Shown: piece after piece, positions 10,546-34,636 of the stretch
Layout of the letters: every line of letters starts with the position of its first letter
How positions within the stretch are numbered: the stretch's first letter is position 1
Assembly (NCBI GenBank): GCA_033697325.1
Contig: GCA_033697325.1_4854.1
DNA length: 46,335 bases
Strand: one strand, 5' to 3'
DNA from: a phage
Notes under the pieces: generated by a model
The model's database searches: none
The model's input: the letters and a program-made list of their open reading frames with translations, nothing else
Told to the model about the DNA's origin: nothing
Position numbers and translations under genes: made by a program

Positions 10546-10821
10546 AAACGGGACAAAACTGGAAGTCTTTAAAAATAAAAGGTTTTCCACTTCCAGTAAC
10601 AAAAGTTTCATGGCTAACACAATTCTTTAACAAATAACCAGCTTAATTGCTGGTTTTTGTGTTTCTGTAGCGTAATGTATTGATATCTATAATAAATATA
10701 AAGAAGATCTTAATATACTTTATAGAGGTAATAAACAAAGGTCACTATTAGTAACACATGTAACTATACATGTAAGCTAGCCTTCACTAACATTTAGTCG
10801 TGCTTTTTCTTTCTCTGTGTG

Positions 10822-10850
10822 TTGACGTAGAATCATCGTTGATGTAGATT
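10822..10850 (+). promoter_or_regulatory. Promoter for rightward small-gene operon, carrying two copies of the recurrent motif
   Basis: TTGACG(TAGA), 17-nt spacer, (TGATG)TAGATT. Confidence 0.5.
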
Positions 10851-10880
10851 GGACTCATCGAAACAAGAGAGGGTGAAGAG

Positions 10881-15037: not shown

Positions 15038-15127
15038 TGAGCGTTTATTTTATGTATCAAGTCAGCAGCCACAGCAAGAAAGGAAGCTGAGCTAAGACAT
15101 GACTTTCACAAGAACCACGGCGCTTGA

Positions 15128-20032: not shown

Positions 20033-20063
20033 ATACTATGCACCACCACTCAATCTACGTCAA
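20033..20063 (-). promoter_or_regulatory. Leftward promoter with motif pair
   Basis: Minus strand TTGACG, then 17-19 nt, then CATAGT or TAGTAT. Confidence 0.4.
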
Positions 20064-20546
20064 CATTTGTTTCCCATGATTGCTATGAAATCCAAACCGT
20101 CTCTCTGCGTTTTTTCTCGCTGACACCGCAGAATCCTTTGAATCAAATCCGCCAAGGTTAATGTGCTTCCCGTTAACCGTTATCCTTGCAACCCACTTGC
20201 GTCTACTCTTGCACCAATGAACACCAGTCACTCCTGACGTATTCATTCTGTGTGTCTTTTGATTTTTCTGGTTTTCAGCGTGACTCACCAGTCTTAAATT
20301 CTCAATCCTGTTATCAAGCCTGTTATGGTTTATGTGGTCAATCTCCATGCCTTCAGGTATCGGGCCGTTATGCATTTCCCATATGATTCTGTGTGCAAGA
20401 TAGCGCTTACGATTATAGCGAACAATCCTGTATCCGAAATTTGTTACAGAGCCAGCAATGTCTCCGGCTTTTTTAGACGCTAGTGGAGGCATCCTCCATA
20501 GCAGATTGATGCCGTCATAATAGAAAACATCACTCCAATCTTTCAT
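20055..20546 (-). CDS. HNH homing endonuclease with AP2-type DNA-binding domain
   Basis: IDHINHNRLDNRIENLRLVSHAENQ HNH motif; C-terminal GVHWCKSRRKWVARITVNGKHINLGGF AP2-like. SD gggag. Confidence 0.75.
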   Translation of the reverse strand: MKDWSDVFYYDGINLLWRMPPLASKKAGDIAGSVTNFGYRIVRYNRKRYLAHRIIWEMHNGPIPEGMEIDHINHNRLDNRIENLRLVSHAENQKNQKTHRMNTSGVTGVHWCKSRRKWVARITVNGKHINLGGFDSKDSAVSARKNAERRFGFHSNHGKQMLT

Positions 20547-20574
20547 GTTGACTACTCCCAATATCCATACCTTC

Positions 20575-20603
20575 AATCTACATCACCAACTTATCTACGT
20601 CAA
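20575..20603 (-). promoter_or_regulatory. Leftward promoter for the HNH gene
   Basis: Minus strand TTGACG, 17-nt spacer, TAGATT; two motif copies. Confidence 0.5.
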
Positions 20604-20620
20604 CACCATTGTGGTAGAAT
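20598..20620 (+). promoter_or_regulatory. Putative rightward promoter for the lysis cassette (divergent from HNH promoter)
   Basis: TAGAAT -10 at 20615-20620, 27 nt upstream of the SD ggacaggagg. Confidence 0.3.
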
Positions 20621-20646
20621 TAATCATTATTTGGACAGGAGGCAGA

Positions 20647-20925
20647 ATGAAACTATCGCAACGCGGCAAAGAGACCTTTGGAATCACCGATGCCGTGGAT
20701 ATATCGCCTTACATCACCACCGAGACGACACAGAATCAGTTCGACGCGCTAACAAGCCTCGCCGCCGACATTGGCATTGACGCTTTCCGCAAATCAACGC
20801 TTCTTAAGAAACACAATCTACGCTGCTTCTCATGTGCTGTTGCGCATTTCATTGTGTGGGGAGAGAAGACTGGCGATAAAGCAAAACGCAGAACTGAAAA
20901 AGAGGTTTACTGGTATGGCTATTAG
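20647..20925 (+). CDS. GH24 (P22 gp19 / T4 e-type) lysozyme remnant lacking the catalytic core
   Basis: MKLSQRG... then TQNQFDALTSLAADIGIDAFRKSTLLKKHNL matches the N-terminus and C-terminal half of P22-type lysozyme, with about 50 aa of the catalytic region missing. Strong SD. Confidence 0.5.
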   Translation: MKLSQRGKETFGITDAVDISPYITTETTQNQFDALTSLAADIGIDAFRKSTLLKKHNLRCFSCAVAHFIVWGEKTGDKAKRRTEKEVYWYGY

Positions 20926-21379
20926 CAAAAACATGAAGGCATTTCTGGATATGCTGGCGTACAGCGAGGGCACGGATAACGGGCGACAGAAAACCAATAA
21001 TCATGGTTATGATGTGATTGTCGGTGGCTCTCTGTTTACTGATTATGCAGACCACCCACGCAAGCTGATTAGCCTCCCAAAGCTGGGTATCAAGTCCACT
21101 GCCGCCGGTCGCTATCAGGTGCTGGCTAAGTTTTATGATGCGTACAAAAAGCAACTGCGCCTGCCTGACTTCTCTCCTGCATCGCAGGATGCTATTGCAA
21201 TGCAGCTAATCCGCGAATGCAAAGCCACTGCCGACATCGAGGCTGGTCGCATTGCTGATGCCATCCATAAATGCCGTTCTCGCTGGGCTTCACTGCCGGG
21301 CGCTGGCTATGGTCAGCATGAGCAGAAGCTGGATAAGCTGATTGATGTGTATAAGGCCGCTGGTGGTGCTGTGGCATGA
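20915..21379 (+). CDS. Endolysin, lambda R-type lytic transglycosylase
   Basis: KAFLDMLAYSEGTDNGRQKTNNHGYDVIVGG...WASLPGAGYGQHE is near-collinear with lambda R as recalled from memory. Confidence 0.85.
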   Translation: MAISKNMKAFLDMLAYSEGTDNGRQKTNNHGYDVIVGGSLFTDYADHPRKLISLPKLGIKSTAAGRYQVLAKFYDAYKKQLRLPDFSPASQDAIAMQLIRECKATADIEAGRIADAIHKCRSRWASLPGAGYGQHEQKLDKLIDVYKAAGGAVA

Positions 21380-21612
21380 AAAAGCTAAGCAACTGGCTGC
21401 TTGGGGCGTGGATTTCATTCTGTTCGCTGTTGCAGCTGTGGCCTGATGCAATGATGCATGTATGGGTAATGATGCCGGATGACCTGAAAGCGGCGCTACC
21501 GCCAGTCGTGGTGAAAGGTGTGAGCTATTCAATCATGCTGGTTGGAGTTCTCGGCAAGATGCACGGCATGAGGAAGGAAAACCGGAGGCTGCGCGATGAT
21601 GGCAAAAGCTAA
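21376..21612 (+). CDS. Small membrane protein in lysis cassette (possible holin or antiholin)
   Basis: 78 aa with two hydrophobic segments; ATGA overlap with the endolysin stop. Confidence 0.4.
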   Translation: MKKLSNWLLGAWISFCSLLQLWPDAMMHVWVMMPDDLKAALPPVVVKGVSYSIMLVGVLGKMHGMRKENRRLRDDGKS

Positions 21613-21985
21613 ATTAATTATAATTCTGCTATTGACCGGTATTGCTATTGGCTCGCTATCATTTGGCGCTGGCTACCTGAAGGGATGGTATGCTCATAGT
21701 GATAAGGTCAATCTTGATGCCGCCAAGCGCAAACAGAACGCGGAGAATAAACAGGCAAAGTCAACCGCGCAATCACAACAGGTGCGCGTGGTGACGGAAA
21801 CTAAATACAAAACCATTTATCGAGATGTGGTGAAATATGTCTCTGACCCGAATCGTACCATTTGCACTTTTGATGATAACTATATCCGGTTGCGCCAATC
21901 AACTCTCAACGCAGACTCAGCCGTCAGCAGAAATGCTGGGGGAGGTGTGCGAATTATCAAAAGTGGCACCGAAAAACAGCGATGA
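21596..21985 (+). CDS. i-spanin (Rz/LysB-like)
   Basis: N-terminal TM helix LIIILLLTGIAIG followed by a charged coiled-coil region; position after endolysin. Confidence 0.55.
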   Translation: MMAKAKLIIILLLTGIAIGSLSFGAGYLKGWYAHSDKVNLDAAKRKQNAENKQAKSTAQSQQVRVVTETKYKTIYRDVVKYVSDPNRTICTFDDNYIRLRQSTLNADSAVSRNAGGGVRIIKSGTEKQR

Positions 21986-22082
21986 GAGCATCGTTATAGA
22001 AAACCAGAATACGGAGTGCGCCACCAAAAGGAAGATGACTATTTACGATTGGCAGGAATGGTATCGTGATAACTTCCAATAA
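21837..22082 (+). CDS. o-spanin (Rz1/LysC-like lipoprotein), overlapping the i-spanin in another frame
   Basis: Signal peptide with lipobox ITISGC; starts inside and extends beyond the i-spanin gene. Confidence 0.55.
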   Translation: MSLTRIVPFALLMITISGCANQLSTQTQPSAEMLGEVCELSKVAPKNSDESIVIENQNTECATKRKMTIYDWQEWYRDNFQ

Positions 22083-22110
22083 AAAAGCCCCGTAATGGGG
22101 CTTTTGTTTT
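22082..22110. terminator. Bidirectional intrinsic terminator
   Basis: A-run, gcccc-gtaat-ggggc hairpin, T-run. Confidence 0.7.
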
Positions 22111-23463: not shown

Positions 23464-23506
23464 TGACGTTTCTACATCACTTAGTCAATACTTATTGATG
23501 TAGATT
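23464..23506. promoter_or_regulatory. Divergent regulatory region with inverted motif pair
   Basis: TTGACG at 23464, tctacatca at 23471-23479, gatgtagatt at 23497-23506; lies between leftward and rightward operons. Confidence 0.35.
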
Positions 23507-23534
23507 GTACCACAACGGAAAAGGTGATGTGGAA

Positions 23535-32098: not shown

Positions 32099-32127
32099 AC
32101 TATAAACACCTCATCAATCTACGTCAA
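32099..32127 (-). promoter_or_regulatory. Leftward promoter for the island operon
   Basis: Minus strand TTGACG, 17-nt spacer, TATAGT; motif copies at 32086-32095 and 32117-32126. Confidence 0.5.
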
Positions 32128-32144
32128 CAGGAATATGCTAAAAT
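32122..32144 (+). promoter_or_regulatory. Rightward extended -10 promoter
   Basis: TGcTAAAAT at 32136-32144. Confidence 0.4.
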
Positions 32145-34559: not shown

Positions 34560-34636
34560 TGGTGGACACGGACGGATTTGAACCTTCAATCAGCCGATTA
34601 TGAGTCGGTTGCTTTAACCAATTAAGCTACGCGTCC
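34560..34636 (-). tRNA. tRNA with CAU anticodon (elongator Met or lysidine-modified Ile2; not initiator-like)
   Basis: 77-nt cloverleaf folded by hand: 7-bp acceptor stem including one GU, D-arm with GG, anticodon loop CUCAUAA, T-loop GGTTCAAATCC, discriminator A, encoded CCA. G1-C72 pair argues against initiator. Confidence 0.75.

What the first reader, a model, noticed from the sequence alone, without database searches (positions are those of the whole stretch)
20055..21379. Decayed GH24 lysozyme next to an intact lambda R-type endolysin, flanked by an HNH-AP2 endonuclease
The 92-aa product at 20647-20925 keeps the extreme N-terminus and C-terminal half of a P22 gp19-like lysozyme but lacks the catalytic core, yet has a strong SD. 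The next gene is a complete lambda R-like transglycosylase. An HNH homing endonuclease on the opposite strand ends where the lysozyme N-terminus would begin. This looks like endolysin replacement with residual sequence, possibly mediated by the endonuclease.
Basis: partly seen in the sequence, partly recalled or inferred. Interest (0 to 1): 0.55.

Follow-up and report, generated by a model that had tools for sequence, protein, structure and literature searches.

The report
Conserved half-lysozyme beside the real endolysin
The 92-residue gene is a conserved, selected half of a phage lysozyme that has lost the lobe needed for catalysis, not a decaying leftover, and it opens the lysis operon of many phages while a different, complete enzyme next to it does the wall cutting.

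Summary
Window 20647-20925 encodes a 92-aa GH24 (T4/P22-type) lysozyme derivative. It keeps the first ~15-19 residues and the C-terminal lobe but lacks about 50 residues, including the catalytic Asp and Thr. A complete lambda R-type endolysin follows (20915-21379), then holin and spanins. An HNH endonuclease lies upstream on the other strand.

Syntenic relatives (Klebsiella phage BUCT610, Salmonella phage gmqsjt-1) carry one full-length GH24 at this position and no R-type gene, so an endolysin replacement did happen.

The remnant is not decaying:
- It is exactly 279 nt, with no indel or stop, in 35 related loci.
- Its dN/dS is 0.11, the same as the holin; off-frame controls give above 1.5.
- 46-55% identical versions exist in other phage lineages, one paired with a GH108 endolysin instead of R.
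- PHROGs already holds it as phrog_10457, labelled "endolysin".

The HNH gene is a sporadic insertion into the promoter region, present here only in this phage and LPST10, so it did not cause the truncation.

Best reading: a non-catalytic accessory lysis protein equivalent to the autonomously folding C-terminal subdomain of T4 lysozyme. Its actual function is unknown.

The parts
20647..20925 (+). 'Mini-GH24' gene: 92 aa, made of helix A, a short linker and the C-terminal lobe of a T4/P22-type lysozyme. The N-lobe (about 50 residues, with the catalytic Asp and Thr) is deleted. It is the first cistron of the lysis operon.
   Evidence: Pfam PF00959 matches residues 19-79 only, to profile positions 55-115 of 125. 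phrog_10457 matches end to end at E 7e-41. Alignments to full-length syntenic GH24s are. dN/dS is 0.11, with no indels in 35 loci.
20915..21379 (+). Complete lambda R-type endolysin (lytic transglycosylase), 154 aa. Its start overlaps the stop of the mini-GH24 gene.
   Evidence: phmmer against PDB 1am7/3d3d gives E 1e-60, residues 3-153 against 4-153, with the SEGT catalytic motif present. dN/dS is 0.035.
21376..21612 (+). Class II holin, 78 aa, two hydrophobic segments.
   Evidence: Pfam DUF7940 at E 3.5e-9. The gene at the same position is annotated as holin in Skate and LPST10.
21596..22082 (+). Probable spanin pair. Rz-like i-spanin at 21596-21985, with an N-terminal transmembrane segment. 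Embedded Rz1-like o-spanin at 21837-22082, with lipobox ...ITISGC.
   Evidence: ORFs and sequences. Spanins are annotated at the same position in relatives. This Rz sequence type is shared with only 2 of 35 loci. No family hit was obtained for this copy.
22083..22105 (+). Terminator-like hairpin, 10 bp stem followed by a T-run, closing the lysis operon.
20573..20646 (+). Promoter and RBS region of the lysis operon. Two copies of the TCAATCTACGTCAACA-like motif at 20573-20588 and 20590-20605. Extended -10 TGgTAGAAT at 20612-20620. SD AGGAGG at 20637-20642.
   Evidence: Read from the sequence. The region is conserved in all 35 relatives. The motif occurs 7 times in the window against 0.48 expected.
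20055..20576 (-). Free-standing HNH_3 homing endonuclease with a sub-threshold AP2-like match. The likely start is the ATG at 20546. It is inserted into the divergent promoter region, and the motif is duplicated on both sides (20050-20065 and 20573-20605).
   Evidence: Pfam HNH_3 at 87 bits and AP2 at 24.9 bits, below its cut-off. It is at this site only in the window and LPST10 (94% aa identity), while paralogues of 35-58% identity lie elsewhere in other genomes. Flanking TTGACG-17-TAGATT and TTGACG-17-CATAGT promoter-like sites are on the - strand.

Best explanation
The window is a Skatevirus-type siphophage. Its lysis operon once began with a full-length GH24 muramidase, as it still does in the relatives BUCT610 and gmqsjt-1.

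**What is shown.**
- A second, unrelated endolysin now sits between that gene and the holin. It is lambda R-type here and GH108-type in a sister lineage.
- The GH24 gene lost about 50 codons in frame. The lost stretch is precisely the N-terminal lobe, with the catalytic Asp and Thr and one wall of the substrate cleft.
- What remains is helix A, a short linker and the C-terminal lobe. This is the natural counterpart of the T4-lysozyme C-terminal subdomain (residues 1-12 plus 75-164), which folds on its own.
- This 92-aa product is kept by purifying selection as the first cistron of the operon. It has a strong SD, and its stop overlaps the start of the true endolysin.

**What is inferred.**
- The protein cannot work as a muramidase.
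- It serves as a non-catalytic accessory of lysis. The most likely role is a peptidoglycan- or envelope-binding or regulatory function that already resided in the C-lobe of this clade's GH24, marked by the clade-specific KHNxxC(F/Y)xCA motif, and that does not depend on which endolysin follows.
- The HNH endonuclease is an unrelated, recent homing insertion into the promoter region.
For: **Architecture.**
- Pfam covers only profile positions 55-115 of 125.
- Alignments to the syntenic full-length GH24s place a 50-residue gap after residues ~15-19.
- No N-lobe-like sequence lies elsewhere in the window.

**Replacement.**
- BUCT610 and gmqsjt-1 have one full GH24 plus the same holin and Rz, and no R-type gene.
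- gmqsjt-1 shares the promoter and the first 9 codons at 94% nt identity.

**Selection.**
- All 35 loci have 279 nt with no gaps or stops.
- dN/dS is 0.11 overall and 0.066 for residues 19-60. R gives 0.035 and the holin 0.11. Off-frame controls give 1.5-2.5. Synonymous divergence is comparable to the neighbouring genes.

**Depth and independence from the partner.**
- 93-aa versions of about 53-55% identity sit next to an R-type endolysin on a BUCT610-like backbone, in L038 and in Flyfo siphovirus Tbat1_6.
- A 98-aa version of 46% identity sits in a syntenic 45-kb phage, followed by a GH108+PG_binding_3 endolysin.
- In every case seen, the mini form comes with another endolysin and the full GH24 stands alone.

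**The motif in the Skate GenBank note.** The 'Ex5Dx8T' look-alike is not conserved across the family. E9 is K or M and T24 is K or V in relatives, and D15 is N in two natural variants.

**Indirect experimental evidence.** All 70 seszw records, wild type plus the CiPGr genome-reduced mutants (the smallest record sampled here is 37.7 kb), keep the gene at 99% identity or more (PMC9825161).

**Structural precedent.** The T4L C-terminal subdomain, which includes helix A, folds autonomously (bioRxiv 10.1101/353649).

**HNH.** It is present at this site in 1 of the 33 other distinct phages compared (LPST10).
Against: - No direct evidence shows that the protein is made or what it binds.
- The AlphaFold model is only moderately confident (pLDDT 72.6, pTM 0.42). 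It superposes poorly on GH24 structures (TM about 0.4), so a compact C-lobe fold is not demonstrated.
- The catalytic-Glu column still holds D or E in most members.
- One paper reports about 1-log killing by TF-tagged 'lysin2' of phage swi2, which is this protein (PMC8185280). Some activity therefore cannot be excluded.
- More distant lambda R-type endolysins work without any such partner.
- Retention in the seszw mutants could reflect polar effects on the downstream endolysin, or the lack of a targeting cassette.
Confidence: 0.7

Rival explanations
1. Decaying pseudogene: residual GH24 sequence left after endolysin replacement, with no function of its own.
For: The catalytic lobe is missing. 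A complete endolysin is adjacent. Relatives with a full GH24 exist.
Against: - No indel or stop in 35 loci at 85-93% nt identity.
- dN/dS is 0.11, against above 1.5 in the off-frames.
- The same architecture survives at 46-55% aa identity in other lineages.
- The apparently frameshifted database versions P0033 and P0029 come from contigs that also carry indels in the R and holin genes, which points to assembly errors.
Confidence: 0.04
2. A genuine second endolysin (muramidase), as annotated in GenBank and PHROGs and as claimed for swi2 'lysin2'.
For: - It is annotated as endolysin or lysozyme in most records and in phrog_10457.
- The swi2 paper reports about 1-log reduction with the TF fusion, inside and outside cells.
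- An acidic residue sits in the catalytic-Glu column.
Against: - The Asp, the Thr and the whole N-lobe that forms half of the cleft are absent.
- D15 is N in two natural variants.
- The substrate-contacting YNIG motif has changed to (A/T)(D/S/A)IG.
- The mini form is never the sole endolysin, whereas the full GH24 is.
- The swi2 assay used 52-kDa trigger-factor fusions, reported marginal P values and saw no EDTA effect. It included no peptidoglycan-cleavage assay.
Confidence: 0.12
3. The ORF is kept only as a translated leader that delivers ribosomes to the overlapping endolysin start (translational coupling). The peptide itself is irrelevant.
For: - The stop of the mini gene overlaps the start of the downstream endolysin in all three cassette types.
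- A strong SD and the promoter lie in front of the mini gene.
Against: - Coupling needs an open frame, not a conserved amino-acid sequence. Synonymous sites diverge almost as fast as in the neighbours (pS 0.28 against 0.36 for R and 0.39 for the holin), while non-synonymous change is about seven times rarer (pN 0.04).
- R has its own GAGG 9 nt upstream of its ATG.
- 55 of 92 residues are invariant in 34 distinct sequences.
Confidence: 0.08
4. The HNH homing endonuclease caused the truncation or the replacement.
For: It lies immediately upstream.
Against: - It is present at this site only in the window and LPST10.
- All HNH-less relatives have the identical 279-nt gene.
- The insertion lies in the intergenic promoter region between duplicated motif copies, not in coding sequence.
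Confidence: 0.02

Closest known systems
GH24 T4/P22-type phage lysozymes (T4 e, P22 gp19; Pfam PF00959). The nearest relatives are the full-length endolysins of Klebsiella phage BUCT610 and Salmonella phage gmqsjt-1.
   Same: Clear homology of the C-terminal lobe (45-50% identity). Identical N-terminus MKLSQRGKE. Shared KHNxxC(F/Y)xCA motif. Same position in the genome.
   Different: About 50 residues are missing, including the catalytic Asp and Thr and the beta-sheet lobe. A further 5-residue loop (KVMNG) is missing. YNIGxG has changed to (A/T)DIGID. There is a new aromatic C-terminus, EVYWYGY.
Engineered C-terminal subdomain fragment of T4 lysozyme (CTF: residues 75-164 plus 1-12; bioRxiv 10.1101/353649 and work cited there).
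   Same: The same parts of the fold are kept: helix A plus everything from the end of helix C onward. That fragment folds autonomously.
   Different: The T4 fragment is a laboratory construct with no biological role. Here evolution made the equivalent and keeps it under selection.
'Lysin2' of Escherichia phage swi2 (PMC8185280) and PHROG phrog_10457 'endolysin'.
   Same: The same protein family and the same gene order.
   Different: Those sources treat it as an active muramidase. Neither notes that the catalytic lobe is absent.
SpmX muramidase domain of Caulobacter/Asticcacaulis (PDB 6h9d): a GH24 domain co-opted for a non-lytic role. The role is from my own knowledge; the structural hit is.
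   Same: A GH24-derived module retained for something other than lysis by hydrolysis.
   Different: SpmX keeps the complete two-lobed domain inside a large cellular protein. Here only one lobe remains, in a phage lysis operon.
Ms6 Gp1, a small chaperone-like protein encoded as the first gene of a mycobacteriophage lysis cassette, overlapping lysA (from my own knowledge).
   Same: A small non-enzymatic protein encoded immediately upstream of the endolysin gene and overlapping it.
   Different: No sequence relationship. Gp1 assists export of its endolysin. No such activity is shown or implied here, and the partner endolysin varies.

Membership tests
GH24 / Pfam PF00959 Phage_lysozyme (as an active enzyme) | Significant match to the family profile | tested here: met
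   42.8 bits against a cut-off of 22.3, E 8e-11. The match covers only profile positions 55-115 of 125.
GH24 / Pfam PF00959 Phage_lysozyme (as an active enzyme) | Catalytic Glu at the end of helix A (T4 E11, in the 'EG' motif) | tested here: inconclusive
   The best-scoring alignment puts D15 in that column here, E in L038, P0075 and P0076, and N in two Skatevirus variants. The EG motif itself is gone.
GH24 / Pfam PF00959 Phage_lysozyme (as an active enzyme) | Catalytic Asp/Cys and Thr downstream of the Glu (T4 D20 and T26) | tested here: not met
   The homologous stretch (full-length residues ~20-69, containing D24 and T33) is deleted. The look-alike D18 and T24 align to the helix that follows the N-lobe and are not conserved in the family.
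GH24 / Pfam PF00959 Phage_lysozyme (as an active enzyme) | Two-lobed fold with the cleft between the lobes | tested here: not met
   The sequence for the N-lobe is absent. The AF2 model has five helices and no beta-sheet.
phrog_10457 (short GH24-derived proteins, labelled 'endolysin') | End-to-end match to the 95-position profile | tested here: met
   E 6.7e-41, residues 1-90 against profile 1-95. P0076 (E 3.5e-18) and P0083 (E 9.9e-20) also match.
Lambda R-type lytic transglycosylase (the neighbouring 154-aa gene) | Full-length similarity to lambda lysozyme, with the catalytic Glu in the SEG motif | tested here: met
   E 1e-60 to 1am7/3d3d over residues 3-153. AYSEGT is present. There is no Pfam-A hit at E up to 1.
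HNH homing endonuclease with AP2 DNA-binding domain | HNH_3 domain plus AP2 domain above threshold | tested here: inconclusive
   HNH_3 at 87.3 bits (cut-off 24.8) is met. AP2 at 24.9 bits is below its cut-off of 33.3. Mobility is supported by its sporadic distribution.
Pseudogene | Neutral evolution: dN/dS near 1, with frameshifts or stops among relatives | tested here: not met
   dN/dS is 0.11, with no indel or stop in 35 loci.

The most novel reading that the evidence does not exclude
The C-terminal lobe of this clade's GH24 endolysin has a second, non-hydrolytic job in lysis. Candidates are binding the wall or envelope, or controlling the holin, the endolysin or lysis timing, possibly through the conserved H-x3-C-x2-C motif. 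Because of that job, the lobe outlives the enzyme as a stand-alone 'pseudo-endolysin' whichever catalytic endolysin (lambda R-type or GH108) is plugged in behind it. That would make it a previously unrecognised class of lysis-cassette component in phages of Gram-negative hosts.
Probability: 0.3. Interest if true: 0.65.

Novelty: new variant of a known kind. Interest (0 to 1): 0.5.

Why it matters
**Annotation.** About 140 deposited phage records (roughly half of them the seszw laboratory series), and a PHROG family, label this gene as a second endolysin. At least one paper builds an 'antibacterial lysin' claim on it. The catalytic lobe is absent, so those labels and claims need re-examination.

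**Biology.** A domain-precise natural excision of one lobe of the textbook T4-lysozyme fold, kept under selection and paired with interchangeable endolysins, suggests that the C-lobe does something on its own during lysis. This can be tested directly in tractable phages, such as the BASEL phages Bas77-80 on E. coli K-12, Skate and seszw.

**Evolution.** It is also a clean case of how endolysin modules are swapped by recombination between the promoter plus first codons on one side and the holin gene on the other.

Tried and rejected
- **Catalytic-triad look-alike.** I first read E9-x8-D18-x5-T24 (and the Skate GenBank note 'Ex5Dx8T') as a retained triad. I rejected this. phmmer aligns D15-T24 to the helix after the N-lobe of P22 lysozyme, and E9 and T24 are not conserved in divergent family members.
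- **N-terminal truncation with a new start.** Rejected. The first 9 residues, the SD and the promoter are homologous to those of full-length gmqsjt-1 GH24.
- **Frame-shifted variants as evidence of relaxed constraint.** P0033, P0029 and P0035 looked frame-shifted. For P0033 and P0029 I rejected this: their contigs carry 4-13 gaps across the mini, R and holin genes, which indicates assembly errors. P0035 was not checked.
- **Split enzyme with the N-lobe encoded elsewhere.** tblastn of five full-length GH24s against the whole window found nothing else.
- **Structure prediction.** The model had only moderate confidence (pTM 0.42). Foldseek found GH24 structures first, but with TM about 0.4 and rmsd about 10.7 Å. 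This is uninformative on the tertiary fold.
- **Other ~90-110-aa library hits as independent mini forms.** Most are fragments, or start inside helix B or C, and some carry junk N-termini. Only P0075, P0076 and P0083 share the architecture.
- **An obligate partnership between R and the mini form.** More distant R-type endolysins (52-70% identity) have no mini form upstream, and P0076 is paired with a GH108 enzyme.
- **CiPGr supplementary tables on gene essentiality.** They are not held as text.
Full report
**What is in the sequence.** Between 20055 and 22105 the window carries, left to right:
- an HNH_3 endonuclease gene on the minus strand (20055-20546, or 20576 from a TTG);
- a ~100-bp promoter and RBS region;
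- a plus-strand operon: a 92-aa ORF (20647-20925), a 154-aa ORF (20915-21379), a 78-aa DUF7940 class II holin (21376-21612), and an Rz-like gene with an embedded lipoprotein ORF (21596-22082);
- a strong terminator-like hairpin (22083-22105).

The 154-aa protein is a full-length lambda R-type lysozyme (E 1e-60 to 1am7/3d3d, catalytic SEG present). The window as a whole is about 90% identical to Skatevirus phages of Salmonella and E. coli such as LPST10, 64795_sal3 and Skate.

**The 92-aa protein is a GH24 lysozyme without its N-terminal lobe.**
- Pfam PF00959 matches residues 19-79 only, to profile positions 55-115 of 125. PDB searches align it to residues ~69-128 of P22 lysozyme.
- The nearest full-length relatives come from phages with the same gene order: Klebsiella phage BUCT610 (145 aa) and Salmonella phage gmqsjt-1 (146 aa).
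- With gmqsjt-1 the protein shares its first nine residues (MKLSQRGKE). It also shares the promoter, SD and first codons at 94% nucleotide identity over 81 nt.
- With both relatives it shares a clade-specific KHNxxC(F/Y)xCA motif.
- A break-point scan with BLOSUM62 places a 50-residue in-frame gap after residues 15-19 of the short protein.
- The lost stretch holds the catalytic Asp (D24), the Thr (T33), the beta-sheet and helix B. The column of the catalytic Glu is still occupied by D15 here and by E in divergent relatives.
- In T4-lysozyme terms, what survives is helix A plus the part from the end of helix C onward. That is the discontinuous C-terminal subdomain (1-12 plus 75-164), which is known to fold on its own (bioRxiv 10.1101/353649).
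- No N-lobe-like sequence is encoded elsewhere in the window.

**It is not decaying.**
- In 35 related loci (33 distinct phages, since the two GenBank loci recur among the 33 IMG/VR loci), at 85-93% nucleotide identity, the gene is always 279 nt with no gap and no stop.
- Pooled Nei-Gojobori dN/dS is 0.11. It is 0.066 for residues 19-60, 0.10 for residues 61-88 and 0.35 for residues 1-18.
- The R-type endolysin gives 0.035 and the holin 0.11. Reading the same DNA in the other two frames gives 1.5-1.9.
- Synonymous divergence is similar to that of the neighbouring genes (pS 0.28 against 0.36 and 0.39). The constraint therefore acts on the protein, not on an RNA or DNA signal.
- 55 of 92 residues are invariant in 34 distinct sequences.
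- Three database proteins looked frameshifted. For the two traced (P0033, P0029), the contigs also have indels in the R and holin genes, which indicates assembly errors.

**The family is older and wider than Skatevirus.**
- An exhaustive profile-free search found two more 50%-cluster representatives with the same architecture: P0075 (93 aa, 53% identity) and P0076 (98 aa, 46%). It also found a more distant candidate, P0083.
- A 93-aa version sits in front of an R-type endolysin on a BUCT610-like backbone. This is seen in L038-L040 and in Flyfo siphovirus Tbat1_6, where the holin is 80/81 identical to BUCT610's.
- P0076 lies in a syntenic 45-kb phage (portal, Mu-F, divergent promoter). There it is followed by a GH108+PG_binding_3 endolysin, a DUF7940 holin and an Rz.
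- PHROGs already has a 95-position family for these proteins, phrog_10457, labelled 'endolysin'.
- The pattern across all cases is complementary. A full-length GH24 stands alone. The short form always comes with another, complete endolysin, of at least two different families.
- More distant lambda R-type endolysins (52-70% identity) have no such gene upstream.

**How the replacement happened.** gmqsjt-1 differs from the window by an exchange of everything between codon ~9 of the first gene and the start of the holin gene. The same alternative, full GH24 or short form plus R, exists on the Klebsiella-phage backbone. This fits module exchange by homologous recombination in the conserved flanks. 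It also fits a single ancient deletion event, because all short forms share the same gap, the same secondary 5-residue loop deletion and the same EVY(W/Y)YGY C-terminus.

**The HNH endonuclease is a bystander.**
- A 94%-identical copy at the same site exists only in LPST10. All other relatives lack it there, and several carry 35-58% paralogues elsewhere.
- Comparison of the 130 nt upstream of the gene in all loci shows that the HNH cassette is inserted into the divergent promoter region.
- It lies between duplicated copies of a TCAATCTACGTCAACA motif. That motif occurs 7 times in the window against 0.48 expected by chance.
- The motif's reverse complement supplies a TTGACG -35 for leftward promoters, both in front of the HNH gene and in front of the older leftward genes.

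**What it most likely does.**
- Shown: the product is a selected protein that lacks two of the three catalytic residues and half of the substrate cleft. It is the first cistron of a late lysis operon, and its stop overlaps the start of the real endolysin.
- Inferred: it is not a muramidase but a non-catalytic accessory. It probably keeps a wall- or envelope-binding or regulatory function that the C-lobe already had in this clade, and that function does not depend on which endolysin follows.
- The changes at the former lobe interface and cleft (YNIGxG to (A/T)DIGID) fit adaptation to life as a free-standing domain (inference).
- Indirect support comes from a genome-reduction experiment. In it, 34 of 81 seszw genes were lost in isolates. 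All 70 seszw records in the phage collection still carry the gene at 99% identity or more.
- I could not see whether the gene was targeted in that experiment, and polar effects on R could also explain its retention.

**What speaks against this reading.**
- The AlphaFold model predicts the expected five helices but has low global confidence (pTM 0.42). It does not superpose well on GH24 structures.
- The swi2 paper reports about 1-log killing by a trigger-factor fusion of this protein, with marginal statistics and no peptidoglycan-cleavage assay.
- An acidic residue remains at the catalytic-Glu position.

I therefore leave about 0.12 for a weakly active enzyme. I give about 0.08 to a pure translational-coupling leader and about 0.04 to a pseudogene.

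**Novelty.** The gene is known as an annotated ORF and as a PHROG family. In the sources I could search, I found no statement of three points:
- that it lacks the catalytic lobe;
- that it is under purifying selection;
- that it is paired with interchangeable endolysins.

I rate it as a new variant of a known kind, namely a GH24-derived pseudo-enzyme kept in the lysis cassette, of moderate interest.

Noticed in passing
window 10820-10852 (-), 20050-20065 (+), 20573-20605 (+), 23493-23508 (-), 32114-32129 (+): A 16-nt motif, TCAATCTACGTCAACA, with up to 3 mismatches, occurs 7 times against 0.48 expected by chance. In the copies examined (20050-20065 and 20573-20605) its reverse complement gives a TTGACG -35-like element, and in the HNH-less relatives it pairs with an inverted partner, TTGATGTAGAT. 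It is probably a phage promoter or operator element.
   Followed up: partly
window 20771-21379 (+): The reading frame of the R-type endolysin stays open for about 48 codons upstream of its real ATG. This gives a 202-aa ORF that overlaps the 92-aa gene. In Flyfo siphovirus Tbat1_6 the equivalent over-long ORF is the annotated 'lysozyme' (L095 2508-3143), which is probably a start-site mis-annotation.
   Followed up: partly
window 21596-22082: The Rz/Rz1 pair of this phage is of a sequence type shared by only 2 of 35 related loci (L017 and L033, 95% identity). The upstream holin, R and mini genes are shared by all. The lysis operon is mosaic at the spanin end too.
   Followed up: no
window 20647-20925, codons 8, 10 and 46: Three sites in the 92-aa protein are hypervariable among close relatives. 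Codon 8 shows K/A/M/V/T/E, codon 10 shows T/A/I/V/M, and codon 46 shows T/V/A/S/E. This might mark a surface under diversifying selection. The R-type endolysin has one comparable site, residue 148.
   Followed up: partly
window 15062-15121 (+): A 20-residue stretch just upstream of the portal gene is 65% identical to the C-terminus of the HNH endonuclease (tblastn E 0.018). No long ORF covers it. It may be a relic of another homing-endonuclease insertion.
   Followed up: no
window 20824-20835 (codons H56, C60, C63 of the 92-aa gene): The motif K-H-N-x-x-C-(F/Y)-x-C-A is conserved in the short forms and in the full-length GH24s of BUCT610 and gmqsjt-1. It is absent from generic GH24 lysozymes, which have KKLNxGDYxGAA there. 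It could be a redox or metal site.
   Followed up: no
window 34560-34636 (-): A single tRNA-Met (CAT) gene.
   Followed up: no
L096 and L097 (ENA contigs ERZ1948697:contig_319 and ERZ1948695:contig_416): These metagenome contigs carry 4-13 gaps across about 960 nt of the lysis operon relative to the window. The gaps break the R, holin and Rz gene calls. The cause is probably long-read assembly error, and it produces spurious 'divergent' protein clusters (P0033, P0029) in the protein collection.
   Followed up: yes
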